DNA of 64,000 nucleotides. Origin: a virus. Shown piece by piece: positions 11,457-27,816 of this stretch. Below the pieces are notes generated by a model. That model searched no databases. It had not been told where the DNA came from and saw nothing but the letters and a program-made list of their open reading frames with translations. Made by a program: the position numbers and the translations under genes. Position 1 is the stretch's first letter; the number at the start of each line of letters is the position of its first letter. The stretch is from positions 1 through 64,000 of IMG/VR virus record IMGVR_UViG_3300002026_000029, one strand, 5' to 3'.

Positions 11457-14400
11457 ATGGCTTATATACCAGCACCTAGTATTATTCCAACACTAGAAAC
11501 ACTAAAGACCTACACACCAGGTCTTGGTGTTGTCCCCACTAAACAAGACATCAAAGCTAACGCAGTAGCTGCTGCTTATGAAGAGAAGCTATCAGACCTA
11601 TCCCAATACTCAGTTGCAAAAATAGTTATTGGCGAAGATGCTGATACACTTATTATTAATAATGATGTTAAGTCTACTCGTATTAGAGGTATAGACGCTA
11701 TGGAAGTCGACCATGGTGATAAGTGGTTGAGTCAGCCTAGTAATCGTCGTCACGTTGATCAACAAAAGATTGTACTCGCAGGTATACTAGGTAAACCTGT
11801 TAGTCTAATCACAGATCAAGATGTATTTGATTACGGTAAACAACAACGGGATAATGTAGCCACTGCATTAGGTGGTACACCTACTAGCCAACTACCTATT
11901 CTGGCACTAGTAGAACAGACAATGAATGCTGATCTATCAGCTTCTGAACAGAAGAATTTGTATGGTAGAACCTTAGGCACTGTACGTCCATTGATTGGCC
12001 CTTATACTAATAATGCTGGTGTAGAGGTACTACCTAGTAATCAAGTCTGGGGTTCATCACATCAGTACTCTAAGGCGAGTCCTTACGACTATGATGTTAT
12101 GACTACTCCTGGTGAATCTAAAATACTAGCTGGTTACTCAGACCCTAATTTAACGGATACCTCTATGGCTTACAATGAAGGGCGTAAGGGTAGTATATCT
12201 AATCTAGTAGACGGACTGCAGTATGGTGTAAGTAGAACAGCTGGTGGTATAGTTGATGCCATAGTTGATGCTGGTATTAGATTAGGTAAAGAAACAGCTA
12301 AAAGTATTAAAGGCATCACAGAGGATGAAGCAAATGAAATCCTTAATAGTAAACTTAAAAATACTATGTTTGCTAATGCTATTGATGTTAGAGGAAACTT
12401 TATAGGAGCTGATATTCTTAAGAAAGCTGAGACTTATGGCTTTGATGATAGTGTAGTTAAAAACGAGATGAATAACTTGGCCGCTGCTTGGAATACTGGG
12501 ACTGTTGCTGATAAAGCAGCTGCACTTCTTAGTGTAGCATGGAATGCTGGTCCTGAATTAGTAGTGTCTAGTGCTGGAGAGTTTCTAATTGGTCCTCTTG
12601 GAAAGCTTGGTCTAGTACTTAATACAGCAAACTACTCTAATCAGATATTAGAAGATGTTAAAGGCGAAGTAACTAACGAACGACGCTTTGTAGCTATGAT
12701 TGGTGGTACTGCAATGGCATTAATAAACAAAGCTGCTGTCGATGAAGCCTTTGGTAATACACAGCTAGTAAAATCTGCATTAGGGTCAGTGTTTAAAACA
12801 GAGTCTAAGACAGCTGCTGTAGCTGCTCTGCGAGGCCTTGCACGTATTGGTGTTATGGCAGGTGGTAAAGCTACTTATGAAGGTCTAGAAGAGGTTGTAC
12901 AAGAATCTATTAGTAAATTTATATCGAAGTATGGTACTGAAGCACAACATGAACTGACAGATGGCACATTAGGTACTGAACTATTCCAAGCGTTTGGTGG
13001 AGGGTTTGGAGCAGGTGCTGCGATTAGTGTTGGTAAGGATATACTACCTGGAATGCCATCACTTAGTCGTGCACAGAAAGATAAAGAAGGAGTTGTACCA
13101 ACATTTGTTGAGACTGCAGTAGCCGCTAATCCTAATGTACCAAAGGGTGATATTGAGACTGCATATAAGGCTATGCAAGAGGGCACCATATTACATGATG
13201 GTAACGTAGCTGTCGATGAGGGTAGTCCTACTGTTACTAGAGATGCCTACGTAGCAGTGTTGAATGCAACTACTGGTGATGAGACATCAACTATAGCTAA
13301 TTCAGGCACTGTTAATCCAACAACTGGTGCTGTTGAGACAGATGCTGAGATACAGAATATTAGTAGTGCATTTGATGCTGCATATAAAGAAGTGGTAGCC
13401 AATATTACATTAGCTAAGACCGCCCTAACACCAGCTAATATAGGTAATTTTACAGAAAATATTCATGAGTATATATTTGAATTACAAGATATTAAAGATG
13501 CAATGGTTGTATATGCTGCTAAAACTGGTATACCAATTACGGAGAAGATTAAAGCTATTGACGCTAAGATAGAACGCTTAATACCTGTGGCAAAGATGAA
13601 TACAGTAGATGAGTTGTCTGGTATTTTACAGGATACTACGCTTACAGTTCCATCAAAGATAGCTACTATTCTAGGAAGTTCAAATGTAACTCCTGTTCAG
13701 GTTAGTGAAGCTATTAAGTTAGCTAGTGAGCATAATACCTCTGATGCAGCTGATAAAGTAGATGATCTTGATATGACCTTGTTGTATTTACAAAAGACTG
13801 CTATGGACGCAGGTAACACTGGTGATAGAGTTAAGCGCGAGAAGTTACTAGGAGGTGGTAGTAAAGCATCTCTTGCATCATATGTAGAATTAGTACGTAA
13901 AGGTAGTAAAGATGCCCTAAAGTATATAAATACATTTGTTGGTAGTCAACGAGCTAAACTAGAAGCGTACAATACTGCTATTGCACAATGGGAAGCTGAT
14001 AATAATATTGACTCAAGTTTATCGACTGATAAGAAGGCTGAGTTAATCAGCAAATTACCAGCGGAGGTAAAAAGTAATATATCTATAAAATATGGGACTA
14101 CTACGTATAATGAGAAACGTGATGCTAAAAATGCAATCCTAAGTGCACTTGATCTTAGAGATACCATAGCGAAAGAGCAGAATCTACTAGAGCAATTATT
14201 AAACTTATCTAATAGTAAATTTGCTTCATCACCAAAGACTGCTGAAAAGAGACAGAAGAAAACTGATGGTAAGGTTAGCCACTTTCCAGTAGCTGGTCCT
14301 GAAATTACCAGTGAGGAAATAGACTTGGCTGAGATGGAGGCTGCACAGCCTACTATTACTGAGTATACTAAGCCTAATGAGCAAGAAGCTGAATCAACTG

Positions 14401-14906
14401 ATAATGCTATGGATGGAAGTGATGAACTTGTTACTAAACAGAAAGCATCATCAGAGTCCACTACAGAGCCTGTAGCTGCTAAAGTAGTTTCAGATGATGA
14501 AGTTGTTGCAGAGAATGGTAAAGAGATTGTAGAGGCTGCAAAGCAGGCTGATTACGAGAAGTTAGCTGACGAGCATGCTATGGAAGATGTAGAGGAGACT
14601 ACTACAGAGGTTAAGCAAGATTTAGATGCAGAAGTAATTGTTAAAGAAGCTGCTGATACTACTGGTATTAAGAAGGCTGCATTCAGTAAGACTAAGAAGC
14701 CAACTACTTATGAGTATAACACTACGGCAGCTAGTATCAATATTGCCAATGAGCTTAGAAACCCTATAGGATCAGCCGATAGTGTTTCACTTGATACTAC
14801 TGAGGTTGGAAATCCATCTAAAAATGATATAATTTCAGCTACAAAGTCACTACAGACTGTGGCTCCGATTATTGCAGCTAAAATAACTAGAGCGTGTAAT
14901 ACTTAG
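11457..14906 (+). CDS. Large ejection protein, equivalent to the N-terminal part of N4-type vRNAP, with N-terminal SNase-like domain
   Basis: 1149 aa. GEDADTL...RIRGIDAMEV...LYGRTLG resembles thermonuclease motifs. EGLEEVVQE and GGGFGAG segments are typical of ejection proteins. Single Cys at position -3. Confidence 0.6.
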   Translation: MAYIPAPSIIPTLETLKTYTPGLGVVPTKQDIKANAVAAAYEEKLSDLSQYSVAKIVIGEDADTLIINNDVKSTRIRGIDAMEVDHGDKWLSQPSNRRHVDQQKIVLAGILGKPVSLITDQDVFDYGKQQRDNVATALGGTPTSQLPILALVEQTMNADLSASEQKNLYGRTLGTVRPLIGPYTNNAGVEVLPSNQVWGSSHQYSKASPYDYDVMTTPGESKILAGYSDPNLTDTSMAYNEGRKGSISNLVDGLQYGVSRTAGGIVDAIVDAGIRLGKETAKSIKGITEDEANEILNSKLKNTMFANAIDVRGNFIGADILKKAETYGFDDSVVKNEMNNLAAAWNTGTVADKAAALLSVAWNAGPELVVSSAGEFLIGPLGKLGLVLNTANYSNQILEDVKGEVTNERRFVAMIGGTAMALINKAAVDEAFGNTQLVKSALGSVFKTESKTAAVAALRGLARIGVMAGGKATYEGLEEVVQESISKFISKYGTEAQHELTDGTLGTELFQAFGGGFGAGAAISVGKDILPGMPSLSRAQKDKEGVVPTFVETAVAANPNVPKGDIETAYKAMQEGTILHDGNVAVDEGSPTVTRDAYVAVLNATTGDETSTIANSGTVNPTTGAVETDAEIQNISSAFDAAYKEVVANITLAKTALTPANIGNFTENIHEYIFELQDIKDAMVVYAAKTGIPITEKIKAIDAKIERLIPVAKMNTVDELSGILQDTTLTVPSKIATILGSSNVTPVQVSEAIKLASEHNTSDAADKVDDLDMTLLYLQKTAMDAGNTGDRVKREKLLGGGSKASLASYVELVRKGSKDALKYINTFVGSQRAKLEAYNTAIAQWEADNNIDSSLSTDKKAELISKLPAEVKSNISIKYGTTTYNEKRDAKNAILSALDLRDTIAKEQNLLEQLLNLSNSKFASSPKTAEKRQKKTDGKVSHFPVAGPEITSEEIDLAEMEAAQPTITEYTKPNEQEAESTDNAMDGSDELVTKQKASSESTTEPVAAKVVSDDEVVAENGKEIVEAAKQADYEKLADEHAMEDVEETTTEVKQDLDAEVIVKEAADTTGIKKAAFSKTKKPTTYEYNTTAASINIANELRNPIGSADSVSLDTTEVGNPSKNDIISATKSLQTVAPIIAAKITRACNT

Positions 14907-14926: not shown

Positions 14927-17900
14927 ATGTCATGTGAACTAACAGAAACAATAAGAGATATAACTAGACTTAAGAAGGCAGAAGGTAACAGTGCTAATAA
15001 GGCTAATACACTCAAGTCACTGGAGAACTTACGTGATACACTCCTGGCCGCTAAGTATGCAGAGACTACGAAGAATGCTACTATAGATATTAAACTTCCG
15101 GTCAAGGAAGCTGTAGACAAGATGCTAGAAGAAGATGTAATCTATAATGAGCTTGTTCAGAACTATAAAGATAGTAAGGTAGCTGTTACAGAGGCCTTTA
15201 GTAAGTTCAATAGTAATAAAACTATGTCTAAAGATAGCACAGTAAAAGGTAGTAGTAAAAAAGCTGGTGATAAAAAAGATGGTACTAATACGCTAAATAA
15301 GTCTGAGAAGGCTCTTGTCACACTGAATGAATACATTACTACAGTACAGGAAAAGTTAGAGTATACAGCAACTGCAGCGGATAAAGCTTCTAGCAAAGCA
15401 GCTAGAGACTACTGGAGTGATAGTAACGATATAATAGCTGCTGAGATGAGTGAACTACAAAATACAGTTAAATCCTTAAAGGCCTTAATAAAGTATTCTA
15501 AGAGTAATATCACACGTGGAAATACATTGTTTGAGGCTGCTCAAAAAGCTATAGAAGTAAGTATAGCAGCTAAAGAAGCCATTACTGAGTATAGAAATGT
15601 GTTTACAACTGGTGGTAATATTCTTCTATGGGTTAAGAATAATAGTCGTAAGACTAAGCATGCTACGGATGTTGATGCTATTACAATTGCTGATTACTTC
15701 ACAGCTAAAAGTACATCTATAGATTTACTAAATGTAGGCAAGAGAATTAAGACGGCATTGTCAATTACTACAGGAGATAGATCTACTAAGAATCATAATA
15801 TAGCTAAGGCTAGGGATATGATTAAAGTAGTATTAGCTGGTGTTCTTAAATTTACTAAGTCAATAGATGTAGGAACATCAAAGTTACATATAGGTGACTA
15901 TATCTCAACTGATGCTAAAGTAAAGGGATTCCAAAATGTTGGTAGGCTACTGTACACACTGGTACCATATAATCCAGAAACTAAACTACCTGACCATAAT
16001 GTTGTTAATCAAGAGGTAGCTAAAGCTATAGCAATATGTTCCTTAGATTGGGCAGCTAACATAGGTGGTAGGAATAGAGCATTCAATAGATCTGATGATG
16101 ATGCAAAAAGAATGCTAAATAAAAATACTAATGATGTGCTATCAGCAGAAGAGCGTGATATTATTAATAGGTTTGATGGGTTACAGGACTCTAGTGCAAT
16201 AATACTTGGTAAGATGATATTTGATATGTTAGGTTTAAAAACAAAGCCTTCAACAGATGGTATAAATAATGAAAGAATTGAGGCTAAACTACAACTGGAG
16301 CTAGGACTAATAGCACTTAAGTCATTAGAGTATTCTGGTATATTAAAGCTCCACACCTCAAAAGATAGATTGCCTAAACAAGATATGGATGATGTTGTAA
16401 TAGAGGCATTAGCTAATAAAGAATTCGTTGAAGGGTATGCAACTCCATATGAGTCACTGTATGGTGAATCAACTACAGGTAAGAATAATTTAGTATCTAC
16501 ATTTAGCTTTACAGCACCAAATGGTGCCTCATTATACGAGAGATTTGATAAAGATGCTACTAATGGTAATCAAATAGTAACTGGTGGTACAGAGACTGCT
16601 ATAGTAGACCTTTATGATGTACTCGGTTATACACCACAGTTAACTGGACCATACTTTACAGAAGGTACAAATAAGACTAATAGAGATGATATTGTTAATC
16701 AAGGCATCAGTCGTAAAGTAGGAGAGACTCCAGAAGTACAAAAGGATGCTATTGAGAATTCGGAAGATACTCCAAGAACATTTGATGAAAACTTTCTTGA
16801 GTTAATTGATGTAATAATTGACGAGATATCTATTGATGGGTTATATAGAGAGTTAGGATGGAAGGATGTTGATACTGCGTATATTGATGATAGAACAGCT
16901 GTAAGAGGTAAGAACTTAGCCATAGAAAGATCTATGAAGTATTTGCAAGAGACTCGTAAGACTCTAAATGAGCTTGGTAAGTCTAAGATGTGGTTTAAAT
17001 GGTATGTTGTGACTAATGGACGATTTGGTATTAAGTCTAATACATTTAATGTACAAGATCAAAAGCTCCATAGAAACTCAGTAAATACTGAAATGATTGC
17101 TGTTACTAAGGGCTCTGTAGAAGAAGATTTACTAATACTTGCTATGGCACAAGGGTTTCATATTTCAGTAGATAAGCAAACATTTGTGCAGTCTAAGAAG
17201 GAGTTCGTTAAGTTATCAAAAGAGATAGATAAGATACTTGGAGCTAGTGTTGAGGACTTCACTTCAGAAGCTGTTACTAAGGCGTTCCGGTTTGTAAACT
17301 CTAAAACATCTGAGCCTGAGCATGCACTACGAGCTCTATCAGAGTATATCCAGTATAGAGCTTGGAATGAGAATGGAGCTACAGAACCGTTAATAACTGG
17401 TATTACATTAGAGACGGATGCTGTTACATCTGGGTATATTTTAAAGTTATTACAGATGCCTATTTTCAAGACAGATGGCATACTTAATATGGAGAAAGTA
17501 ATAGCTCATTTAGCTAAGGGTGGTGTTTTTAAGCATGAAGTAGATGCTGATGGTAATACGATAAATCAGTCTTATGAAGAATGGAAGATGGAGCCTACAA
17601 ATAAGGACTCATATGAGACTGTAGCCAGTGCATTTGGTAAGCAGTTGCATGAGGCAACACAATCTGAGAACCTATCGTATAGAATTGGTAAACCAAATGT
17701 TAAGTTTACAAGCTTATCTACTAAAGAGAAAGATAATCTTAATAAAATAGCTATAGAAGAGCAAATTAAAGTTGTAGCAATTATGGCTGTATTAGGCGAA
17801 ACAAAAGTAAAAGATTCAATTATACAAATATCAAGATCCTTCATGAAGAACCCTTTCATGGTATTTAACTACGGTTCAGCTATTAACTCAATAGTTAAGT

Positions 17901-20900
17901 CACTGTCAAATACTGCAGTTGAGAACCTTAATGGCCTTATGACTAAAGCGGCTAATAGAGATTACCCGTCTAAAGCATCTGATGGTGGTGAAGTTACTAC
18001 TACTGAAGCAAAGAACAAGGCTATAGCTGAGGCTGATGCAGCAATGACTATATTAGTTGATGCAATATTAGCATCAGCATTTGGACGAAATAATGATACG
18101 CGAGCTGCCTCTACTGAGCGTACAATACAGTTTGTCAAACAGTTGGATGCTGCATATAAAGAAGATCCAATGTCATTACTGGAGTTTAAGATACCAAAAG
18201 ACATTCGTAAGCTAGTATTTGAAGCGACTCAACGTACTATTAAGGAGCCATTAACAGCTACATTTAAGTCTGAGTATGGAGAGTTTCTAGAGGCTGGTAA
18301 GACAATTAACTCTGCTATGGTTATGTTGATGAGAGCAGCTACACCTAAGATAGAGGCTGCCATTGATGCACAGATTAATAATATTCATACACAGGCTATA
18401 AAAGATGGCACAGTATCACCTAAGTCAAAACCTAGACCTCTAACTAATCGTGAGATAGATGAGATAATATTAGACTTAAGGGACACACTACCAGTGCTGA
18501 ACATGCCATTAGGTGATGGTGATAAAAGTAAGATACTACTAGCTGCTGAAGATGCAGGGGAGTATAATATTAATACAGTATTGAATGTTGATACTACATC
18601 TGGTTTTACGTTTGAAGATACGCCTGCACTACGAGGAACTAGTAGGTTGTACAAGTTGGTTGAGAAATACACTAGTGGAGCCGTAATTCCAATTCACTTT
18701 ATGGATGGATCTATTCAATCACGTGTATTGAGTGTGTTTAAAGCACTAGGAGTACATGATGCTAACTTATTCACATTGAAGGATGCAGTACCAGGTACTA
18801 AGGCCTATAACAAAGCTGTTATAGAATTGGCTAAATCTTACTCTCTTACTACTGAAGTATTGAATAGTGTGACTACATCACTGAATACATTGAGTACACC
18901 TGAGTTAGAGGCTCTGGACGATAATTACTTAAATGAGTTTGTTAAGAAAAAAATTACGAGTATTGTACATGCAGTTGCTAAAACTAATGCTGTTAATAGT
19001 ACTAAGTTGCGTACTATTTTAGTAGATAGTATCCCTAAAATAATTATGACAATTAAAAATCAAGCTCCATTAATGCCAATTGTTACTGCTAATGAGGAGT
19101 TATATAGAGAGGCTGTAGCCGACGTATTACTACAAGTAGTGTATGAACTTCAAAGTGCACCTACTGTAAATGATATGTTTATAGCTGTTGTTGAGTTACA
19201 AAAAAGTAGTGAGGAAGGACGTGATGCATTATTTAATGGAGATGCACTCTATGTAGAACATGCTGCCTTAGAAGGCGCTGCTTATGTAGCAGAAAAGACA
19301 ACATATACTAAACAGATTCCCATTGACAAATCTCCTACTCTAGCTTCATACCTAGGTACTTTTAAGGGGATTGTTTCAGAATGGTATTTAGCACATAGTG
19401 CTGATGAGCTTGGACGAACTATAAGTACTGTGGTTACACCACTGAAGCCAGCTGTAAAAACTAACACTACACAGGGTAGTATAAACATATACTCAACAGA
19501 TAAGAATGGGTATGAAGGTTTAAGTAATTTAGTCGCTGGTCCAGTTGAGAGACTTGGTATAGTATATAAAACAGTTGAAGCTGCTTTCCAAGCAACTAAG
19601 GCTAAGTATCTCGGTGATGTAGCTGCTGCTGCTAGAATTATTGATGCTAGTACAGGTGCACAAGCTAAACAACTAGGTGATCCAAGCGGAATTATAAAGG
19701 TAGGTAGTAATACAAAGACGTTAAAAGATTGGGACAACGTGGCAACAAAAACAATGAAACTTATACTGAGTCATTACTATAATAATGATAATAAAGCTGC
19801 AGAATTATTGTTGTCAACAGGTAATTCTACCCTTACACATACACAAGATAAAGGTAAATGGGCTACCATATTTCCACAATTACTTATGGAGATTCGTAGT
19901 GAGTTACAAAACGATACTACCAAAAACAAACCTGTAGTAGACTACGTAGCTAAAGTAAGAGAAGTAAATAAAGGAACTACTGCTGACAAACATACAGAAA
20001 AAGAAGTGGCTAAGGCTAGTATGGCAAACAAGTACATAGGGTTTGGGAGTGCTAACAGCTCTACACATAGGTATGCAGGAGTATATGGAAATAACGCTAA
20101 TAGGACAGACTATGTAGCTAATGATATTGTATGGGTATCAAGTAATGGAAGAAGAACTGGCAGGGTTAATCCGGTTCAATCTGGTAAACTAGTTAATGGG
20201 TATCAGATTCTTGATAATGCTATAGAAGCAGGTGCAACAATTGTAATGGATACTGAAGCACATTTAGCTAATAGTAGTACATACAACATAGGTGAGACGG
20301 CTTTAGCTGATTATATGGTTACTAAAGGGTATAGTAGGGTAACAGAGAATAAGGCTGGAGTATGGAGACCTAATAAAGATGCAGAATTATTGTTGTCAAC
20401 AGGTAATGCTACAATTACACATACAAATGAGACTCCTATTCCTACAAGTAAGTACAGCGTACCTGAGAACATAACAGAGTTAAAGCCTAACGAGGTATTC
20501 GTATTTGGGTCTAACCAGCAAGGTCGCCACGGTAAGGGTGCCGCACTTACCGCTAAGCAGAAGTTTGGAGCTGAGCAAGGTAAAGGTGAGGGAGAGTTTG
20601 GTAATACGTATGCATTACCAACTAAATCTACACCAGATGTGACATTAACTATAGAGGAAGTTACTACAGGTGTAAACAAGTTTCTTGCACATGCTGCTAA
20701 GAATCTTGATAAGATGTACTTAGTTACTGCGATAGGTACTGGGTTAGCTGGTATGATGGCCGAGGATATTGCACCACTGTTTAAAGAGGCTGGTGACAAT
20801 GTTAAGCTTCCTAAGGCCTGGGAAAATATTTCAATGGCTACTCCTACTGCAGGTACTCCTAATGACATAGCACCAATCCCATTCAAATTGAAGATAGCTG

Positions 20901-23392
20901 GTGATGAGATTAATCTAATGAGCGTAATAGGATTTCAAGACGGTAGATTGGCACAAGCAGATGCTAATGATATAATCTATATAAAGAAAGGGCTAACTGT
21001 AGAAGAAGTCCTTGAGTATCTTACAGGCGGAGACAGTAAGACTGCCATACAAAAGAAAGTAATTACAGAATATATGAAGGTACAAGGTATTGATCTAATA
21101 GCTACTATAGAGCGTATGACAGATGCCCAAGTGAAGAAGTTCATAGCAGCACATGAATATGTACATATACTGCAAAAAAGAGCTAATGGTGGTAACCTAA
21201 AAGATGCCTACTATGCTGATAATAAGCAAACACTGGCTGGAGATATGGCCGATACAGCTAATAGATTCTTGAGCGATAGTGCTATAAAGTTTGAAGCAGA
21301 CGCTAATACCAGAGGACTAGAGCTTATAGGAATAGTTCCTATAAGAATAGAAGATGATATATCTCCATTGGATGTAGATAAGATGGCAGTAACGGACATA
21401 ATTACTAATGAGTTACAGGGATCAACGCTTTATGCTGATGTAGTTAAAATCCTTGAGAGTGTAGTGGTCAATAAAATTAAATATGGCTTACGTACAATGC
21501 ATTCTGATAGTAAGTATGGAAATCCATTTGTCACTGAGAAAGCTTATGAAATCAACAGTAAAGGGTATACCTACATAGGTGGAAACGAACAAGTGAGTGT
21601 TGCTTACTATAATTGGCTTAAGGATAATACTCTACCTGCACAGGCTGAGAAGTATAGACCACTCCTTGATAAAGCAAGAGTTGAAATTCTTAACAATTTA
21701 GAAGCCGTGCGTTCCGCCGCTAAGGAAGGAGGTATAGGATTCCACTACACTGGTACAGCCAAAACTGGAGTTAGTCACGTTAGTGCATTGATAGCTATAG
21801 CTAATGATGGTAAGGTAGATACTGATGGTAATGGGGTATTGGTGCAAGTACAAAAAGACTCTAATCCTACAATAGTGCCTGGTGAGACTACTACACCTGC
21901 TAAATCTACTAAAAAAAGTGGAGATACTAAGTACGAGTTATTCCCTGGTGTTTATGCTAACGAAGGGCAAGTAGCTGCGATAGATGTATTAACTGACTTT
22001 TTAAAGGGTAATGAGACAGAGTATGTGTTAAAAGGCAGAGGTGGTACTGGTAAGACAACTATTGTTAATAAGGTATTAGAGAATGTAGGGTTATTATACT
22101 CTGAGGTATACTTTACCACTATCACTCATAAAGCTAAGCAGGTAATAGAAGCGGCTAATAAGAATAGCAGGTATGCTAAAAGTCCATATGCTGTTACCCA
22201 GTCAAGCTTATTCAAGTTTGGCAAACCATTAAAGAATAAGATACAGATAGAGTCACCTAAGGTAATTGTAGTTGATGAGGCGTCTATGGTTAACGAAAAG
22301 ATTATTCAAGATATCCTAGATACTGCTAAAGACATTAATGCTAAGGTACTATTTATGGGTGACAATGTACAGTTACAGCCTGTTACAGGTAGTATCCCTG
22401 GAGCTAGTAGCCCTATATTTGATAGTGAACTACATCCTAATGTGGTAGAACTAGAGGAGCGTATGCGTCAAGGAGAAGAGTCCCCAATACTACCTATTAC
22501 AGATATGCTTGCTAACTTTGTGGAGGGTAATGGTGATGTATCATTTGATGGTGTGTCTCACGTTACTCCTAAAGGCACTGTTGAGTACATGGAATCTGGA
22601 GATGTAACAACATCAGAGTTTGTTAAAGACTTTAAGAAGGCTCCTAGAGAGACTAGATATATATGGTACAACAATGATTTACACAAAAATACTACTAAAT
22701 TAGTTGAGCAGATTAGAGTAGGGTTGTATGGTAAGCGCGCTGAAATGAAATATGTTAAAGGTGAGCAGATAATACTAGGTGGTAACTATGGTAATAAAGG
22801 TAAGGGGGAATTCACCGCTTTTAATAGTGAAGAATTCACAGTTAGTAATGTAACTACTGCACATAGTGCGACTGTAAAGTATACTGAGTATATTAACGGG
22901 AAGTCTTTTAATAACCAGTATACATATAATAAGCCTGTGTATCATGTAGAGGCAACTAGTAACTCAAGCGGTAAGACTATTGTACTAGTATCTCCTCAGG
23001 AATCATTCGCTACAGCGACACAAGGCTTATCCAATACTATTAAAGAAGAGTTTGCACAGATTGCATATGCGTATGTAATTAGCTCACACAAAGCTCAAGG
23101 TAGTACATATAAGACTGTGTATACGGATGTAGCTAATATCTTAAGAGCCCCTGGGCAGAATTCTATTGATCAAGTTAAGAGTTTATACGTAGCTACATCT
23201 AGACCTACTGATAAGTTAGTACTAGTTAATGCTGGGGAGTTTATTACTAAAGAGTATGTATCAGCCATTGATACAGTACAGGATTCAGCTATAATAACAC
23301 CAATTAAAAATAAGACAGTGTTAGATGGTTACTCCAAGCAGGCTTCTGAGGCTGTTAATAAGATACTAGATAGTACATGTAAAGGAAATTAA
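14927..23392 (+). CDS. Virion-encapsidated single-subunit RNA polymerase (N4 vRNAP-like) fused to cargo domains and a C-terminal Dda/RecD-like SF1B helicase
   Basis: 2821 aa. Motif A LETDAVTSG (~17411), motif B RSFMKNPFMVFNYG (~17834), motif C GVHDA (~18750). Helicase Walker A GRGGTGKT (~22034), VVDEAS, MGDNVQLQP, HKAQGSTY, LYVATSR. Confidence 0.85.
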   Translation: MSCELTETIRDITRLKKAEGNSANKANTLKSLENLRDTLLAAKYAETTKNATIDIKLPVKEAVDKMLEEDVIYNELVQNYKDSKVAVTEAFSKFNSNKTMSKDSTVKGSSKKAGDKKDGTNTLNKSEKALVTLNEYITTVQEKLEYTATAADKASSKAARDYWSDSNDIIAAEMSELQNTVKSLKALIKYSKSNITRGNTLFEAAQKAIEVSIAAKEAITEYRNVFTTGGNILLWVKNNSRKTKHATDVDAITIADYFTAKSTSIDLLNVGKRIKTALSITTGDRSTKNHNIAKARDMIKVVLAGVLKFTKSIDVGTSKLHIGDYISTDAKVKGFQNVGRLLYTLVPYNPETKLPDHNVVNQEVAKAIAICSLDWAANIGGRNRAFNRSDDDAKRMLNKNTNDVLSAEERDIINRFDGLQDSSAIILGKMIFDMLGLKTKPSTDGINNERIEAKLQLELGLIALKSLEYSGILKLHTSKDRLPKQDMDDVVIEALANKEFVEGYATPYESLYGESTTGKNNLVSTFSFTAPNGASLYERFDKDATNGNQIVTGGTETAIVDLYDVLGYTPQLTGPYFTEGTNKTNRDDIVNQGISRKVGETPEVQKDAIENSEDTPRTFDENFLELIDVIIDEISIDGLYRELGWKDVDTAYIDDRTAVRGKNLAIERSMKYLQETRKTLNELGKSKMWFKWYVVTNGRFGIKSNTFNVQDQKLHRNSVNTEMIAVTKGSVEEDLLILAMAQGFHISVDKQTFVQSKKEFVKLSKEIDKILGASVEDFTSEAVTKAFRFVNSKTSEPEHALRALSEYIQYRAWNENGATEPLITGITLETDAVTSGYILKLLQMPIFKTDGILNMEKVIAHLAKGGVFKHEVDADGNTINQSYEEWKMEPTNKDSYETVASAFGKQLHEATQSENLSYRIGKPNVKFTSLSTKEKDNLNKIAIEEQIKVVAIMAVLGETKVKDSIIQISRSFMKNPFMVFNYGSAINSIVKSLSNTAVENLNGLMTKAANRDYPSKASDGGEVTTTEAKNKAIAEADAAMTILVDAILASAFGRNNDTRAASTERTIQFVKQLDAAYKEDPMSLLEFKIPKDIRKLVFEATQRTIKEPLTATFKSEYGEFLEAGKTINSAMVMLMRAATPKIEAAIDAQINNIHTQAIKDGTVSPKSKPRPLTNREIDEIILDLRDTLPVLNMPLGDGDKSKILLAAEDAGEYNINTVLNVDTTSGFTFEDTPALRGTSRLYKLVEKYTSGAVIPIHFMDGSIQSRVLSVFKALGVHDANLFTLKDAVPGTKAYNKAVIELAKSYSLTTEVLNSVTTSLNTLSTPELEALDDNYLNEFVKKKITSIVHAVAKTNAVNSTKLRTILVDSIPKIIMTIKNQAPLMPIVTANEELYREAVADVLLQVVYELQSAPTVNDMFIAVVELQKSSEEGRDALFNGDALYVEHAALEGAAYVAEKTTYTKQIPIDKSPTLASYLGTFKGIVSEWYLAHSADELGRTISTVVTPLKPAVKTNTTQGSINIYSTDKNGYEGLSNLVAGPVERLGIVYKTVEAAFQATKAKYLGDVAAAARIIDASTGAQAKQLGDPSGIIKVGSNTKTLKDWDNVATKTMKLILSHYYNNDNKAAELLLSTGNSTLTHTQDKGKWATIFPQLLMEIRSELQNDTTKNKPVVDYVAKVREVNKGTTADKHTEKEVAKASMANKYIGFGSANSSTHRYAGVYGNNANRTDYVANDIVWVSSNGRRTGRVNPVQSGKLVNGYQILDNAIEAGATIVMDTEAHLANSSTYNIGETALADYMVTKGYSRVTENKAGVWRPNKDAELLLSTGNATITHTNETPIPTSKYSVPENITELKPNEVFVFGSNQQGRHGKGAALTAKQKFGAEQGKGEGEFGNTYALPTKSTPDVTLTIEEVTTGVNKFLAHAAKNLDKMYLVTAIGTGLAGMMAEDIAPLFKEAGDNVKLPKAWENISMATPTAGTPNDIAPIPFKLKIAGDEINLMSVIGFQDGRLAQADANDIIYIKKGLTVEEVLEYLTGGDSKTAIQKKVITEYMKVQGIDLIATIERMTDAQVKKFIAAHEYVHILQKRANGGNLKDAYYADNKQTLAGDMADTANRFLSDSAIKFEADANTRGLELIGIVPIRIEDDISPLDVDKMAVTDIITNELQGSTLYADVVKILESVVVNKIKYGLRTMHSDSKYGNPFVTEKAYEINSKGYTYIGGNEQVSVAYYNWLKDNTLPAQAEKYRPLLDKARVEILNNLEAVRSAAKEGGIGFHYTGTAKTGVSHVSALIAIANDGKVDTDGNGVLVQVQKDSNPTIVPGETTTPAKSTKKSGDTKYELFPGVYANEGQVAAIDVLTDFLKGNETEYVLKGRGGTGKTTIVNKVLENVGLLYSEVYFTTITHKAKQVIEAANKNSRYAKSPYAVTQSSLFKFGKPLKNKIQIESPKVIVVDEASMVNEKIIQDILDTAKDINAKVLFMGDNVQLQPVTGSIPGASSPIFDSELHPNVVELEERMRQGEESPILPITDMLANFVEGNGDVSFDGVSHVTPKGTVEYMESGDVTTSEFVKDFKKAPRETRYIWYNNDLHKNTTKLVEQIRVGLYGKRAEMKYVKGEQIILGGNYGNKGKGEFTAFNSEEFTVSNVTTAHSATVKYTEYINGKSFNNQYTYNKPVYHVEATSNSSGKTIVLVSPQESFATATQGLSNTIKEEFAQIAYAYVISSHKAQGSTYKTVYTDVANILRAPGQNSIDQVKSLYVATSRPTDKLVLVNAGEFITKEYVSAIDTVQDSAIITPIKNKTVLDGYSKQASEAVNKILDSTCKGN
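19789..19843 (+). repeat. 55-bp direct repeat copy 1 within the vRNAP gene
   Basis: 51/55 identical to 20371-20425; encodes NKAAELLLSTGNSTLTHT. Confidence 0.9.
20371..20425 (+). repeat. 55-bp direct repeat copy 2 within the vRNAP gene
   Basis: Encodes NKDAELLLSTGNATITHT. Confidence 0.9.
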
Positions 23393-26300
23393 TGAGCTGT
23401 GATCTAAAACAAACTACTATAACCAACTTAACTAAGGTGTTTATGCGAGATTTACGAGGTAGTGGATTAAGTCATGATGAACTAAAGGCTAAAGCATCTA
23501 GTGATGCTGTCGCTATAGTAGAGGCTCGCTATGCTAATGAGGTAGAAGAATTTGCTGCTGAGGCTGATGCTAGAGCAGCACTTCCTGGAGGTGTTGTTTT
23601 AGAGCTTAATGCAGAAAAGCCTACTGTTTACAGTCCTAGATCTAAATCACAAGTAAGACTTACAGTCACAGAAGTTAATAATAATAAAGTGTACGGGACT
23701 ATTGGTAAAGGTACTACTGTGTTTAGTTATACACCAGGGTTACTAACGTTAAATCAGAAAGACGCACAGACAATTATTAACAAGTATACTGTAACACCTA
23801 TAGCATCTGAGGCTATTAGTAGTAATGCTACTGATATTACTCCAGCGTCACCTAGTAAGCAATCAACTGTGGCTGTTAGTAAAGAAGTACAGCTGTTAAA
23901 TGAGCAGTATCTTGCAAACCCAACTTCAGAGAATAAGACTAAGCTAATGAATGCAGAGATAGCACATGGGTACCGTAATACTAAAGGTGAGCTATTAGTC
24001 AAGTTTACTGCTCAGAAAGAACTAATTAAAAGTGCTGATATAACTACTGAAGTTACCGATGAAGGTTTTAATGAGCTATATGTTGATACTGATGGAACTA
24101 TTAGTAAGAGTGCTAATTTAAACAAAGCCTTTATAGCTGCTGATAAGATTAATATGGGTGAAAATTTCGATGAAAGTCATAGTGAGGATTTGACTGCTTT
24201 ATTAGCTAATATAGAAGCACTTGTATATGAGATCAATGATAAAGAAGTTAAGTTAAAACCTATAACACTTAAAGATGCTACTGATCCTACAGGTAATACA
24301 GGAGCTGCTGGTTCATGGAACCCTAATACAGATGTTATTGAATTGTATACGGATACTCATGGAGCTGGTGCAGACTTTAGAAACAACTTCTCAATGACAA
24401 ACCAAGAGGTTTATGCTCATGAGATGATTCATGCTGTAATGGATTTTATCTTTAATAAAGATAACGCTAAAGTTGGTAAATCAACTACTATTACTTCACT
24501 TAAAAGTAGCCTTGAGTCACTGTTTGCGAAAGCATCTAAAGAGAGTACATGGAAGACACTACTACCTGGCATTGATGATAATGTAGTATACACAGAGCAA
24601 CAGAAGTTACAAGCTCAAGTTAAATGGCAGTATATATTCCGTAATCCACATGGGTATGGACTACATGAGTTTATGGCTAGTATAATGACCAACTCTATGT
24701 TTAGAGAAGGTATGAAATCTATTGGTAGTTTATCAACAGTTATTGATACTGAAGATAATTTAGCAGATCAGATTAGAGCGTGGTTTAATAAAATATTTGA
24801 GAAACTATTTGGGTATATGACTAATAAGAGAGATAATACAATCACTAAAGAAGGCACTAGACTTATAATTGATCTAATGAGAGCTAATTACAATGCAGTT
24901 GAAAGAGTTAGTATGGTGCAGGTTATCAAGTCAGTTGATAATGTGTACGATTTAGCTGTTAATAAGATGGATGTGGCTAATGAGAGTTTTAAGAAGCTTA
25001 CTGACCCATTTGTAAGAGTTATTGATTCTCTTGAAGATACAATTAATGGCAAGGCTAGTAAACACTTAAGTTTAGACATGTTAAAGGAGTTTACACTTCT
25101 AAGAGATGAGCTTGTCACAAAATTAACTAAGATTAATACTAGACCAGATAACTCAGGTTCTAGCTTTGTTAATGGGTTTAGACAGGTAATTAAAATGATC
25201 TATAAGCTAGGTGTATTTATTACTGCTATGCCTGCGTTGTTTAAGATGCGAAAGCTAGTTAAAGGCTCTAAGTATGATAAGAATGTTGGTAAGTATTTTA
25301 CTAAGATAATCAATGACTTTTTAACTGCTATTGGATTAGCTGAAGAAAATGGCTTTAGAGTTATGTTACGTGACTTTATTGATAGACCAGGACTATATAA
25401 CTTCTTAGCAGATTCATTGTTGAGACTAACCCATGCTGTTGATGTAGTAAGAGAGACTACATTTACGGCTGTAAAGGGTGAGTTACTAGGTGGTTATGAG
25501 GGAATTCATATGGATAATGATTTGCTCAATCTACGTAACAATGAGGCCCATCTAGACGTTATTCTACGAACAGACCTACAAGTACTAGGGTTAGATGCTG
25601 AAGGGCTCCTAGAGCTCCTACGTAACCCTGATGAGGTAAAGGCTAAGATAGCTGAGTTATCAGTAGGGTTGCATAAGCAAGTTATTAAGGGTGCTAAACA
25701 GTTGGCTAAGGGGATGGTTACTGGAGTTGGTGTTACAAGTAATGCTGAGAATGTTGCTAGAAGCTTTGGATTTGAATACCAGACCGCAGTAGATCCAGAT
25801 ATTATTATGCAGACAGATAAGCTAATAACATATTTGGCTTTGGATATTACAGCTGTAGAATCAAAGGCACAGATGGTATCGTTCTTAGATGGTTCAGAGT
25901 ATAAGAATTATTCAAATACTATTTGGCGTAAGATTGCTAAGAAGAATGGTATTAAAGCACGCAGTGCTCTTACACAGGAGCAATATACTGAAGTAGTGAC
26001 TAATGGTATGAACTTATTTCTTATGCGTGCTATAGGCCTTAATGCGGCTTCTAAAGAGGAAATGGCTGCTACTCCACATTTACGTATCAAGGGATATGTA
26101 AAAGATGTGTACAGAACTAAAGATACAATTGAAATGTTACCTATGTCTAAGATAAAAGAGCATGAGGCTAACGGGTATGTATTATTAACAAAGATGCCTA
26201 ATGTAGTTATTACAACTGATGAATATGGTATGTTTGTGAATAAGATGCCTGCAATTAAGAGAGCTAATGGAACACTAGGGTTACAGGACAGTAAGGCTAG

Positions 26301-27816
26301 AGGTTTAACGTTGAGAGATTTAATCCATAGAGAGTCTAACGATGCAGATATAATGTGGGATGATACTAAGAAAAGACGTACATTTGAAAGTATTTTACCA
26401 CAGATGGTAGCTCAGTATCATAAAAATCCAGAGTCAACGCCAATGTCACCAATGTATGATGCTAATGGTAGAATTGTAGACTTTAGATATAACATGAGTA
26501 TTGCTGATAAGAAGAAATACTTAGACCTAGATACACGTGGTATTGATAACATGGCTAGATCATATAGTACTATGGGCACTGCAAAGACTACAGCGGCACA
26601 TAACCATGAAGTAGTTGATCTTCTAGTAGATGATTACTTAAATAATTATACTGGAAATGAAGAGTCATACGTAGTTATTAAGCCATTAACTCTTACTGCC
26701 CTTGATTATGAGTTAGAAACTTATTCTACAGAAGCTATGACAGAGGCTGAAAAGTATAGCCACTATTGGGCTAGATTACCAAAGGATACAAAGGAGTATG
26801 CAACTAAGAAGTTTGCTGGTAAGCAGTTAATACTACGTAAAGAGTTTTTGACCATAGCTTTTGGTGATGATGATTTTAGTATTACACAATTAAAGATGTT
26901 TAATAAGACTAAGCCAAAGACTAAGATACTAATTCGTCAGATTGAGAGTGGTTGGCAAGATTTAATGCAGATTGCTAAAAGTAACATTGTTATTAAGACA
27001 CCTGCTGTTTTCACTGGTAATATATGGTCAAACTTAAAGATATTAGTTTACGTAGGTGTTCATCCAATTAAAGGTGCTGAACTAATGTTATTGGCTTCAA
27101 AAGAGTTAAAGAGATATGAGACTGATAATGCTGAGTTGGGTAAGTTAAAGAGAGATCGTCTTAGTGGTATAAAAGATTTAGATGTTAGAATTACTGAGAT
27201 AGAAGCTAAGATGAAAGAGAATTTAGTTTACCCTTTAATTACAGCAGGATTGTATCAGTCGATAGTAGAAGATGTTACTACTAGTACTAAGTTGAATACT
27301 GTTGGGCAATACTTTGATGATAAGCTTAATAAGTATGTGACTAATGACACTGCTAACTCAGTGATACAAATGCTATTCATGACTCAGAAGACTAAGCCTT
27401 ATCAACAAATGTTAAAGCTGACACAAGTATCAGACTTCTACTTTAGATTTGCTCAGTACTATGATGCAATTGATAATAAAGGCCATAGCCCTGAGAGAGC
27501 ACTACGAGATGCTATTGATAACTATATTAACTATGAAGTTCCATTAGAGAAACATGTAAGATATATGGATACTATTGGTTCATGGTTCTTTATAAAATAC
27601 TTTGTTAAAGTACAGCGAGTTATAAAGAAGTTTGCCACTCAACACCCACTTAAGATGGCTACTGACTTAATGTTACAGCAATTCGCATGGGGTGATACTG
27701 AGGGAGTTGAGAATAGTTTCTGGGCAACTAAGATATGGAGTAAGATTCTACCATTTAATCAGTACAGTAACCTTAAACAAGTTATTGTGCCATCTGGAGC
27801 TGATTTAGTTCTATAA
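23392..27816 (+). CDS. Large ejection protein equivalent to the C-terminal part of N4-type vRNAP, with zincin HExxH domain
   Basis: 1474 aa. YAHEMIHA...LHEFMA zincin motif. C-terminal VYPLITAGLYQSI, TQVSDFYFRF and NYINYE...YMDTIGSWFF resemble the N4 vRNAP C-terminal domain. TAATG overlap with the previous gene; single Cys at position 3. Confidence 0.7.
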   Translation: MSCDLKQTTITNLTKVFMRDLRGSGLSHDELKAKASSDAVAIVEARYANEVEEFAAEADARAALPGGVVLELNAEKPTVYSPRSKSQVRLTVTEVNNNKVYGTIGKGTTVFSYTPGLLTLNQKDAQTIINKYTVTPIASEAISSNATDITPASPSKQSTVAVSKEVQLLNEQYLANPTSENKTKLMNAEIAHGYRNTKGELLVKFTAQKELIKSADITTEVTDEGFNELYVDTDGTISKSANLNKAFIAADKINMGENFDESHSEDLTALLANIEALVYEINDKEVKLKPITLKDATDPTGNTGAAGSWNPNTDVIELYTDTHGAGADFRNNFSMTNQEVYAHEMIHAVMDFIFNKDNAKVGKSTTITSLKSSLESLFAKASKESTWKTLLPGIDDNVVYTEQQKLQAQVKWQYIFRNPHGYGLHEFMASIMTNSMFREGMKSIGSLSTVIDTEDNLADQIRAWFNKIFEKLFGYMTNKRDNTITKEGTRLIIDLMRANYNAVERVSMVQVIKSVDNVYDLAVNKMDVANESFKKLTDPFVRVIDSLEDTINGKASKHLSLDMLKEFTLLRDELVTKLTKINTRPDNSGSSFVNGFRQVIKMIYKLGVFITAMPALFKMRKLVKGSKYDKNVGKYFTKIINDFLTAIGLAEENGFRVMLRDFIDRPGLYNFLADSLLRLTHAVDVVRETTFTAVKGELLGGYEGIHMDNDLLNLRNNEAHLDVILRTDLQVLGLDAEGLLELLRNPDEVKAKIAELSVGLHKQVIKGAKQLAKGMVTGVGVTSNAENVARSFGFEYQTAVDPDIIMQTDKLITYLALDITAVESKAQMVSFLDGSEYKNYSNTIWRKIAKKNGIKARSALTQEQYTEVVTNGMNLFLMRAIGLNAASKEEMAATPHLRIKGYVKDVYRTKDTIEMLPMSKIKEHEANGYVLLTKMPNVVITTDEYGMFVNKMPAIKRANGTLGLQDSKARGLTLRDLIHRESNDADIMWDDTKKRRTFESILPQMVAQYHKNPESTPMSPMYDANGRIVDFRYNMSIADKKKYLDLDTRGIDNMARSYSTMGTAKTTAAHNHEVVDLLVDDYLNNYTGNEESYVVIKPLTLTALDYELETYSTEAMTEAEKYSHYWARLPKDTKEYATKKFAGKQLILRKEFLTIAFGDDDFSITQLKMFNKTKPKTKILIRQIESGWQDLMQIAKSNIVIKTPAVFTGNIWSNLKILVYVGVHPIKGAELMLLASKELKRYETDNAELGKLKRDRLSGIKDLDVRITEIEAKMKENLVYPLITAGLYQSIVEDVTTSTKLNTVGQYFDDKLNKYVTNDTANSVIQMLFMTQKTKPYQQMLKLTQVSDFYFRFAQYYDAIDNKGHSPERALRDAIDNYINYEVPLEKHVRYMDTIGSWFFIKYFVKVQRVIKKFATQHPLKMATDLMLQQFAWGDTEGVENSFWATKIWSKILPFNQYSNLKQVIVPSGADLVL

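What the first reader, a model, noticed from the sequence alone, without database searches (positions are those of the whole stretch)
21930..23240. Dda/RecD-like SF1B helicase fused to the virion RNA polymerase
Seen: the last ~480 aa of the RNAP polypeptide carry a complete helicase motif set (GRGGTGKT, VVDEAS, GDNVQLQP, RMRQ, HKAQGSTY, LYVATSR). Established: N4 vRNAP transcribes ssDNA hairpin promoters and depends on host gyrase and SSB. Inference: a co-ejected helicase could melt templates itself, or act as a motor that pulls the genome into the cell. The genome already has a separate UvrD-like helicase (27839-29317) and a primase-associated helicase, so this copy probably has an entry-stage role.
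Basis: partly seen in the sequence, partly recalled or inferred. Interest (0 to 1): 0.78.

Follow-up and report, generated by a model that had tools for sequence, protein, structure and literature searches.

The report
Helicase cassette in N4-type virion polymerase
An uncultured phage has an intact Dda-type DNA helicase on the end of the RNA polymerase it most likely injects with its DNA, and because the same helicase clade is also joined to the unrelated virion polymerases of crAss-like phages, it may open double-stranded DNA for polymerases that read only single strands.

Summary
All six quoted motifs lie at aa 2370-2759 of a 2821-aa ORF (14927-23392). That region folds as a complete Dda-type SF1B helicase: pLDDT 85.8, and T4 Dda is the best PDB match.

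The N4-type virion RNA polymerase is encoded here in three pieces:
- an NTD gene;
- a gene carrying the RNAP core, NADAR, A1S_2505 (N4 gp14 family), an HExxH domain, a DUF4326-like segment and the helicase;
- a CTD gene.

The join is not a chimera: a second assembly gives the same 2821-aa protein.

The helicase is an optional cassette. About 8% of long N4-type vRNAPs sampled carry it. The nearest cultured relative found (Alteromonas phage AD45-P1) has none, and no record among 50,697 GenBank phages joins the two. Where present, it usually sits between core and CTD.

In trees, vRNAP-linked helicases form one clade. One branch goes with N4-type polymerases, its sister with crAss-type (DFDxD) polymerases. 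Catalytic residues are invariant.

Both polymerase types transcribe single-stranded DNA but hardly any double-stranded DNA in vitro. My best reading, an inference, is a co-injected template opener.

This scan has reported the same thing on other DNA: many crAss-type cases and one N4-type case.

The parts
11457..14906 (+). vRNAP N-terminal-domain piece (1149 aa), a separate gene
   Evidence: aa 204-533 match the N-terminal part (aa 217-552) of P0121, whose RNAP core follows in the same polypeptide (E 6e-68). Six further relatives also match. It has its own RBS and stop.
14927..23392 (+). 2821-aa gene: RNAP core, cargo domains and helicase
   Evidence: Open frame. phrog_2206 and phrog_325 match the same protein. 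A second assembly has the same length.
15509..19309 (+). N4-type (T7-like) RNA polymerase core, aa ~195-1461
   Evidence: phrog_2206 profile positions 802-1981 of 3406, E 4e-68. Motifs: TxxGR aa 696, A aa 829, B (RxxxKx7YG) aa 970, C (HDA) aa 1277.
19520..19849 (+). NADAR domain, aa 1532-1641
   Evidence: Pfam PF08719: E 1e-10 on the whole protein and 4.7e-12 on the segment, both above the cut-off.
20462..20830 (+). A1S_2505 / N4 gp14-family domain, aa 1846-1968
   Evidence: phrog_2072, E 1.5e-37. NCBIfam NF049995, 129.6 bits against a cut-off of 45. The nearest Atlas cluster is 'N4 gp14 family protein', score 0.97.
20954..21346 (+). HExxH (zincin-like) domain; HEYVH at aa 2076
   Evidence: The motif is conserved as HELSH, HEVGH and HEYRH in P0144, P0096 and P0073. 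No Pfam hit; the fold was not tested.
21494..21826 (+). DUF4326-like conserved segment, aa ~2190-2300
   Evidence: Weak Pfam DUF4326 match (E 0.07). Conserved in P0140 and P0139.
21959..23251 (+). Dda-type SF1B helicase, aa 2345-2775
   Evidence: All motifs are present, the best fold match is T4 Dda, and the catalytic residues are invariant across 242 relatives.
23392..27816 (+). vRNAP C-terminal-domain piece (1474 aa), a separate gene that overlaps the helicase gene's stop (TAATG)
   Evidence: phrog_2206 profile positions 2609-3366 of 3406, E 1.6e-101. RBS AAAGGA lies 5 nt upstream. The frame is closed 4 codons upstream, and the in-frame codon after TAA is TGA, so readthrough or frameshift cannot join the two genes.

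Best explanation
WHAT IT IS (shown). The gene at 14927-23392 is the middle piece of a three-gene N4-type virion RNA polymerase. Its T7-like catalytic core is followed in the same polypeptide by about 1350 residues of add-on domains joined by linkers: NADAR, an unnamed domain, an A1S_2505/N4 gp14-family domain, an HExxH domain and a DUF4326-like segment. At the very end is a complete, catalytically intact Dda-type SF1B helicase. The whole block sits where N4 gp50 has its flexible RNAP-CTD hinge. It is an optional cassette that some N4-type polymerases carry and most lack. The helicase belongs to a clade specialised for life inside virion-RNAP genes, of both N4-type and crAss-type.

HOW IT WORKS (inferred). 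The piece is packed into the capsid with the NTD and CTD pieces and ejected with the leading DNA. In the cell the tethered helicase uses ATP to open the incoming duplex. This gives the polymerase the single-stranded template, and perhaps the extruded hairpin promoters, that in N4 are supplied by host gyrase and SSB. SF1B helicases move 5'->3'. A helicase on the non-template strand would therefore travel in the same direction as the polymerase.
For: IDENTITY.

REAL GENE. A second assembly gives the same protein. Base composition is even across the join.

TRIPARTITE LAYOUT.

RECURRENCE OF THE SAME PLACE IN THE GENE:
- One polypeptide with core, then helicase, then CTD: P0047 (4637 aa, 87 member sequences, phrog_2206 at 2223 bits), P0089, P0099 and P0116.
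- Core then helicase then stop, as here: P0003, P0004, P0067 and P0158.
- Helicase then CTD: P0002 (55% identical helicase), P0006 and four more.
- Two representatives (P0215, P0252) and one IMG/VR locus (L008) have helicase, then core, then CTD.

ACTIVITY UNDER SELECTION. Walker A Lys, motif II D and E, motif III Q, and the motif IV and VI Arg are kept in 16 of 16 N4-type and 86 of 86 crAss-type embedded copies, at about 30-35% pairwise identity.

LINK WITH VIRION RNAPs:
- 86 of 242 nearest relatives carry the crAss-type catalytic motif GSDFDxD. It is always upstream, with the helicase at the extreme C-terminus.
- In trees, the vRNAP-linked helicases form one clade (SH-aLRT 96). It has an N4-type branch (16 of 16) and a crAss-type sister branch (15 of 16). 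Isolates' stand-alone N4 gp37 and Dda helicases fall outside it.

SHARED NEED:
- phi14:2 gp66 transcribes single-stranded or denatured DNA; it does not transcribe double-stranded M13 DNA and only weakly its own native genome. Its eukaryotic relative QDE-1 needs a helicase and RPA (bioRxiv 10.1101/2020.03.07.982082).
- The template requirement of N4 vRNAP is established (Falco 1978, cited in PMC5512222).

NOT AN ESSENTIAL REPLICATION GENE. The nearest cultured relative found, AD45-P1, has no Dda-like helicase in its 103,910-bp genome.
Against: - Nothing shows that this piece is in the virion. It lacks in cis the CTD that N4 needs for encapsidation.
- The helicase is optional. About 3 of 39 long N4-type vRNAPs carry it, so the polymerase works without it in most phages.
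- Its neighbours (NADAR, A1S_2505, zincin) look like anti-defence or DNA-care cargo. That fits a role unrelated to transcription.
- Dda-type helicases need a 5' single-stranded loading site. How one would arise on incoming duplex DNA is unknown.
- The genome record is about 77% complete by CheckV, so a second Dda-like helicase elsewhere cannot be excluded.
- The trees sample only the nearest relatives of this helicase.
Confidence: 0.5

Rival explanations
1. Anti-defence or DNA-care cargo. The helicase is one of several pre-loaded effectors of a polyvalent protein. It works with NADAR and the A1S_2505 domain on the incoming DNA, for example by exposing ADP-ribosylated bases for repair or by stripping host proteins or nucleases. 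It has no role in transcription.
For: - It lies in a string of NADAR, A1S_2505 and HExxH domains.
- By single-sequence phmmer, NADAR occurs in 14 and the A1S_2505 domain in 11 of 120 helicase-bearing giant proteins (the query itself counted), in many directly upstream of the helicase.
- In classical N4-like phages the A1S_2505 gene lies within about 5 kb of the helicase gene. In crAss-like phage cr50_1 the two are adjacent domains.
- The cassette is optional, as is typical of polyvalent-protein modules (PMC5512222).
Against: - The helicase is the constant partner of the RNAP, while NADAR and A1S_2505 come and go.
- This reading does not explain why this clade is tied to two unrelated RNAPs that both need single-stranded templates.
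Confidence: 0.25
2. Replication or recombination helicase delivered early, or merely fused. It does what T4 Dda or N4 gp37 do at forks and origins. It may be released from the polyprotein by the HExxH domain, and need not be packaged.
For: - The nearest helicases in cultured phages are the replication-module helicases of N4-like phages (25-28% identity).
- The genome as held has no other Dda-like helicase.
- An HExxH domain lies just upstream.
Against: - AD45-P1 replicates without any Dda-like helicase.
- The embedded helicases form their own clade, apart from N4 gp37 and Dda.
- The conserved place between RNAP core and CTD in single polypeptides (P0047 and others) means the helicase is packaged wherever the vRNAP is.
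Confidence: 0.15
3. DNA-entry motor. The ejected helicase, anchored at the membrane through the vRNAP pieces, pulls the genome into the cell.
For: The 2026 N4 paper models vRNAP as staying anchored to the membrane after ejection (PMC13434306). That transcription helps to bring the N4 genome in is my recollection, not checked here.
Against: SF1B helicases translocate on single strands, not duplex DNA. Most N4-type phages lack the cassette. No sequence feature points to this role.
Confidence: 0.07
4. Artefact: an assembly chimera, a missed stop or frameshift, or a decaying pseudogene.
For: None found.
Against: - A second assembly gives an identical length and one substitution.
- There are 2821 open codons.
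- All catalytic residues are kept.
- The same architecture occurs in relatives at only 37% identity (P0003 and P0004).
Confidence: 0.02

Closest known systems
Escherichia phage N4 gp50 virion RNA polymerase (Schitoviridae; NTD 1-906, RNAP 998-2103, CTD 2124-3500; PMC13434306)
   Same: It has the same T7-like core motifs, and homologous NTD and CTD (phrog_2206). Its 'beads-on-a-string' build matches. The cassette here sits at the equivalent of the RNAP-CTD hinge.
   Different: N4 gp50 is one polypeptide with no helicase, NADAR or A1S_2505 domain. In N4 the Dda-like helicase (gp37) and gp14 are separate non-structural genes. Here the vRNAP is three genes and carries about 1350 extra residues.
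T4 Dda helicase (PDB 3UPU, 8GME) and RecD2 (3GPL), SF1B
   Same: All helicase motifs are present, and Dda is the best structural match.
   Different: Only 18% identity over the structural alignment. Here it is embedded at the end of a 2821-aa virion polymerase gene rather than being a free ~440-aa early protein.
crAss-type virion RNAP-helicase fusions, e.g. uncultured phage cr50_1 (MT774375) 4774-aa CDS annotated 'DNA helicase'
   Same: The helicase is from the sister clade. The order is the same: RNAP, then A1S_2505, then helicase at the C-terminal end, followed by another large gene.
   Different: That polymerase is the unrelated two-barrel DFDxD type (phi14:2 gp66-like), not T7/N4-like.
Polyvalent proteins of phages and conjugative elements (Iyer et al. 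2017, PMC5512222)
   Same: A giant multidomain protein inferred to enter with the DNA. [quoted passage not shown]
   Different: The paper lists SNF2 and UvrD-type helicases only. The terms 'Dda', 'SF1', 'RecD', 'Pif1' and 'NADAR' do not occur in its text.
Alteromonas phage vB_AmaP_AD45-P1 (NC_021532)
   Same: It is the nearest cultured relative found (UvrD-type helicase 41% identical). Its vRNAP is also split, into NTD+core (2514 aa) and CTD (1419 aa).
   Different: It has no cargo block and no Dda-like helicase anywhere in its genome. Its split is annotated as a 'potential frameshift'.

Membership tests
SF1B helicases (Dda / RecD2 / Pif1 type) | Motif I (Walker A, GxxGxGKT) and motif II (DExx) | tested here: met
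   GRGGTGKT at aa 2370 and VVDEAS at aa 2448. These are invariant in alignment A1 and in 242 relatives.
SF1B helicases (Dda / RecD2 / Pif1 type) | Motifs III (GDxxQLxP), IV, V and VI with conserved Arg | tested here: met
   GDNVQLQP 2478, RMRQ 2512, HKAQGSTY 2721, LYVATSR 2753. Q2482, R2514 and R2759 are invariant.
SF1B helicases (Dda / RecD2 / Pif1 type) | Two RecA-like domains plus an SH3-like 2B domain; fold like Dda | tested here: met
   AF2 model with pLDDT 85.8 and a beta-rich block at model residues 311-365. Foldseek: 3UPU at E 6e-25, then RecD2 and Pif1. The pin region (model residues 103-115) is low-confidence.
SF1B helicases (Dda / RecD2 / Pif1 type) | ATP-driven 5'->3' translocation and unwinding | not testable with these tools
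   Needs biochemistry.
N4-type virion RNA polymerase (Schitoviridae gp50) | T7-like single-subunit core with motifs TxxGR, A, B and C | tested here: met
   phrog_2206, E 4e-68. Motifs at aa 696, 829, 970 and 1277.
N4-type virion RNA polymerase (Schitoviridae gp50) | One ~3500-aa polypeptide with NTD, core and CTD | tested here: not met
   Three genes, each with its own RBS and stop. They cannot be joined by readthrough or frameshift.
N4-type virion RNA polymerase (Schitoviridae gp50) | Encapsidated and ejected with the DNA | not testable with these tools
   Inferred from homology and gene position only.
Polyvalent proteins (Iyer et al. 2017) | Many unrelated catalytic domains in one polypeptide of a phage or conjugative element, including a zincin | tested here: met
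   At least five recognisable domains. A conserved HExxH is present, but its fold was not tested.
Polyvalent proteins (Iyer et al. 2017) | Delivered into the recipient cell with the DNA | not testable with these tools
   Inferred.

The most novel reading that the evidence does not exclude
One clade of Dda-like helicases has become the portable 'template opener' of virion-delivered RNA polymerases. It has moved between two unrelated polymerase types (N4/T7-like and crAss two-barrel) because both read only single-stranded DNA. The tethered helicase tracks 5'->3' on the non-template strand, in the same direction as the polymerase. This would make first transcription of the incoming duplex independent of host gyrase and SSB.
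Probability: 0.35. Interest if true: 0.78.

Novelty: new variant of a known kind. Interest (0 to 1): 0.6.

Why it matters
How virion RNA polymerases that are almost inactive on double-stranded DNA start transcription on an incoming duplex genome is only partly understood. N4 relies on host gyrase and SSB. For crAss-like phages the answer is open.

A helicase hard-wired to the polymerase in some phages of both groups gives a direct, testable answer. It also provides a natural minimal system: core plus helicase in one 2821-aa protein.

The result further shows that N4-type vRNAP genes are modular. Their break points vary and their cargo can be swapped. This matters for annotating them: such genes are currently labelled 'frameshift', 'DNA helicase' or 'exodeoxyribonuclease V'.

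Tried and rejected
- Megablast of the gene against 50,697 phage records found no match.
- Single-protein scans of IMG/VR with the RNAP core found nothing, and with the helicase found one distant locus. The alignment-based scan worked.
I therefore could not read the contigs of P0002, P0121 or P0047, and could not check whether those phages also keep a stand-alone helicase.
- Single-sequence phmmer with the RNAP core missed all fused relatives. Iterated HMMs were needed.
- Readthrough or a -1 frameshift joining the helicase gene to the CTD gene was rejected. TGA follows TAA in frame, and the CTD frame has a stop 4 codons upstream of its ATG.
- I rejected the idea that this is a relocated orthologue of the N4 gp37 replication helicase. 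The isolates' helicases fall outside the clade, and AD45-P1 has none.
- The 'primase-associated helicase' was not confirmed.
- Folding the HExxH region was abandoned. Only three homologues were available, and the whole-protein alignment did not align the motif cleanly.
- A search for a repeated hairpin-promoter family gave only three weak candidates.
- Literature searches found no paper that discusses a Dda-type helicase inside a virion RNAP. The figures of Yutin et al. 2021, which may show it for crAss-like phages, are not held.
Full report
THE OBSERVATION

The window is the first 64 kb of a 90,795-bp single-contig phage record. GC is about 36%, and CheckV estimates completeness at 77%.

ORF 14927-23392 (+) is open for 2821 codons. 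These correspond to nt 22034-23203.

- Pfam finds AAA_30, AAA_19, PIF1 and UvrD_C_2 over aa 2345-2767.
- PHROGs calls aa 2345-2775 a Dda-like helicase (phrog_325, E 5.5e-57). It calls aa 75-1461 of the same protein a virion RNA polymerase (phrog_2206, E 4e-68).
- By sequence, the solved relatives are DSH9, a Leptospirillum Dda, T4 Dda and RecD2.
- An AlphaFold2 model built on 36 homologues has pLDDT 85.8 and pTM 0.83. Its best PDB matches are T4 Dda (3UPU, E 6e-25), DSH9, RecD2 and Pif1.

THE GENE IS REAL

A second, independent assembly (P0272) encodes the same 2821-aa protein with one substitution. Base composition is even across the region. Relatives whose helicases are only 37% identical have the same order: core, then helicase, then stop (P0003 and P0004).

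WHAT SURROUNDS IT: A THREE-PIECE vRNAP

The RNAP match covers only profile positions 802-1981 of the 3406-position N4 vRNAP profile, which is the catalytic core. The core motifs TxxGR, A, B and C lie at aa 696, 829, 970 and 1277.

The next gene (23392-27816, 1474 aa) matches profile positions 2609-3366, the C-terminal domain, at E 1.6e-101. The preceding gene (11457-14906, 1149 aa) matches the N-terminal part of relatives in which that part is fused to the core.

Each piece has its own AAAGGA-type ribosome-binding site. The helicase gene ends ...AAT TAA TGA, and the CTD gene's ATG overlaps the TAA. The CTD frame has a stop four codons upstream. Neither readthrough nor a frameshift can join the two genes.

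So the vRNAP, one 3500-aa chain in N4 (NTD 1-906, RNAP 998-2103, CTD 2124-3500; PMC13434306), is three genes here.

THE CARGO BLOCK

Between the core and the helicase lie about 880 residues of add-on domains:
- NADAR, aa 1532-1641 (above the Pfam cut-off).
- An unnamed domain, aa ~1700-1845, also found in other giant proteins.
- An A1S_2505 / N4 gp14-family domain, aa 1846-1968 (phrog_2072 E 1.5e-37; NF049995 129.6 bits against a cut-off of 45).
- An HExxH domain whose motif is conserved in three homologues.
- A DUF4326-like segment.
- A low-complexity linker.

The whole block, including the helicase, sits where N4 has its RNAP-CTD hinge.

SURVEY OF RELATIVES

Two large searches with the helicase gave 242 non-redundant relatives. 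One was restricted to long proteins. The other was exhaustive and unbiased in length.

In the unbiased top 150, only 40 are stand-alone (650 aa or less).

With HMMs iterated locally, 17 of the 242, the window's own protein among them, also contain N4-type vRNAP parts:
- Core, then helicase, then CTD in one chain: P0047 (4637 aa, 87 member sequences, phrog_2206 at 2223 bits, with a weak, sub-threshold SprT-like zincin match after the helicase), P0089, P0099 and P0116.
- Core, then helicase, then stop: this gene, P0003, P0004, P0067 and P0158.
- Helicase then CTD: P0002 (55% identical helicase), P0006, P0117, P0184, P0195 and P0250.
- Helicase, then core, then CTD: P0215 and P0252.

One IMG/VR locus, L008, has helicase, then core, then CTD in one 3902-aa frame.

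So in most of these the cassette keeps its place between core and CTD, while the stop codons that cut the chain move.

THE CASSETTE IS OPTIONAL

- The closest relatives of this RNAP core (P0121-P0131) end right after the core and have no helicase.
- Only 3 of 39 long CTD-bearing vRNAPs carry helicase domains.
- No record among 50,697 GenBank phages has an N4-type RNAP and this helicase in one place.
- Alteromonas phage AD45-P1 is the nearest cultured relative found (UvrD-type helicase 41% identical). Its vRNAP is split into 2514-aa and 1419-aa ORFs and annotated 'potential frameshift'. It has no cargo block and no Dda-like helicase in its whole genome.
- In this genome as held, the embedded copy is the only Dda-like helicase.
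The 'primase-associated helicase' was not confirmed.

THE LINK WITH crAss-TYPE POLYMERASES

Eighty-six of the 242 relatives carry [GSA][ST]DFDxD, the catalytic motif of the two-barrel virion RNAP of crAss-like phages. The motif is always upstream of the helicase, and the helicase ends a median of 57 residues before the C-terminus. Four that I scanned match phrog_16227 'virion structural protein'.

A deposited example is the 4774-aa CDS of crAss-like phage cr50_1, annotated 'DNA helicase'. It has DFDID at aa 3154, A1S_2505 at 4019-4154 and the helicase at 4170-4723.

TREES

- FastTree on all 242 rows: one group holds 14 of 16 N4-type copies and no crAss-type. Its sister holds 85 of 86 crAss-type copies and no N4-type.
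- IQ-TREE (LG+C20+F+G4, PMSF) on 63 rows, rooted on isolates' stand-alone N4 gp37 and Dda helicases: one clade (SH-aLRT 96) splits into a crAss-type branch (15 of 16; support 92) and an N4-type branch (16 of 16; support 94). Most stand-alone helicases fall outside that clade.
- Caveats: only the nearest relatives of this helicase were sampled, some short rows may be gene fragments, and the root rests on five reference sequences.

The catalytic residues (Walker A Lys, DE, motif III Gln, motif IV and VI Arg) are kept in all 16 N4-type and all 86 crAss-type embedded copies. The ATPase is therefore under purifying selection.

MECHANISM

Shown: an intact helicase is covalently joined to a virion-type RNAP core. 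This join recurs with two unrelated RNAP types.

Established from the literature:
- N4 vRNAP needs single-stranded template, and in vivo needs host gyrase and SSB (Falco 1978, cited in PMC5512222; the gyrase and SSB dependence is my own knowledge).
- phi14:2 gp66 transcribes single-stranded or denatured DNA well; it does not transcribe double-stranded M13 DNA and only weakly its own native genome. Its eukaryotic relative QDE-1 needs a helicase and RPA (bioRxiv 10.1101/2020.03.07.982082).
- SF1B helicases move 5'->3' (my own knowledge).

Inferred: the piece is packaged and ejected, and the helicase opens the incoming duplex for the polymerase. On the non-template strand it would move in the same direction as the polymerase. 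I put this at about 0.5 overall. Identity is about 0.95. The transcription-coupled role is about 0.4-0.5.

Rivals:
- An anti-defence or DNA-care role together with NADAR and A1S_2505 (0.25).
- A replication or recombination helicase that is pre-loaded or merely fused (0.15).
- A DNA-entry motor (0.07).
- An artefact (0.02).

KNOWN OR NEW

Polyvalent proteins, and the fusion of N4-type RNAPs to zincin, lysozyme, ART and RNase domains, are described in PMC5512222. That paper names only SNF2 and UvrD-type helicases. The 2026 structural paper on N4 does not mention a helicase. My literature searches found no discussion of a Dda-type helicase inside a virion RNAP, although figures are not held.

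Within this scan the same thing has been reported before on other DNA: many crAss-type cases and one N4-type case. I reached the same reading independently before seeing those notes.

I class this as a new variant of a known kind.

Noticed in passing
window 14898-14906, 14933-14935, 23378-23380, 23398-23400: The three vRNAP pieces (5444 aa in all) hold only five cysteines. Four of them sit 2-4 residues from the facing termini...RACNT* / MSCEL... and ...STCKGN* / MSCDL.... The two downstream pieces begin with the same MSC(E/D)L. This may mark disulfide links between the pieces.
   Followed up: partly
window 19787-19849 and 20369-20431: A 21-residue segment, AELLLSTGN(S/A)T(L/I)THT..., occurs twice (aa ~1621-1641 and ~1815-1835). 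The two copies flank the unnamed ~175-aa domain between NADAR and A1S_2505. It could be a split NADAR tail or a repeated joint at which cassettes are swapped.
   Followed up: no
genome positions 71865, 75346, 76805 (beyond the window; L003 7865, 11346, 12805): There are three CCCT-NNN-AGGG hairpins (5-bp stem with A/C before it, 3-nt loop) in the presumed early region, against 0.37 expected genome-wide. Two are intergenic and one lies inside a 106-aa ORF. They may be N4-style hairpin promoters for the vRNAP.
   Followed up: partly
L078 35624-47306 (Alteromonas phage AD45-P1, NC_021532 90623-102305): The region annotated 'potential frameshift: N4 gp50-like' is two clean ORFs: 2514 aa (NTD+core) and 1419 aa (CTD). 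It is a naturally split vRNAP in a cultured phage.
   Followed up: partly
L085 15826-30150 (uncultured crAss-like phage cr50_1, MT774375 65825-80149): A 4774-aa CDS annotated only as 'DNA helicase' carries the crAss-type RNAP motif DFDID at aa 3154, an A1S_2505 domain and the helicase at its end.
   Followed up: partly
window 9405-11417: A 670-aa ORF just upstream of the vRNAP pieces has a phage lysozyme domain at aa 503-626. By size and position it may be the counterpart of the N4 gp51-type ejection protein, with a wall-cutting domain.
   Followed up: no
L084 (Sulfitobacter phage EE36phi1) and other classical N4-like phages: The A1S_2505/gp14-family gene (RefSeq: 'DprA-like') and the Dda-like helicase gene lie within about 5 kb of each other as separate non-structural genes. 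Here and in crAss-like phages the two are adjacent domains of the virion polymerase.
   Followed up: no
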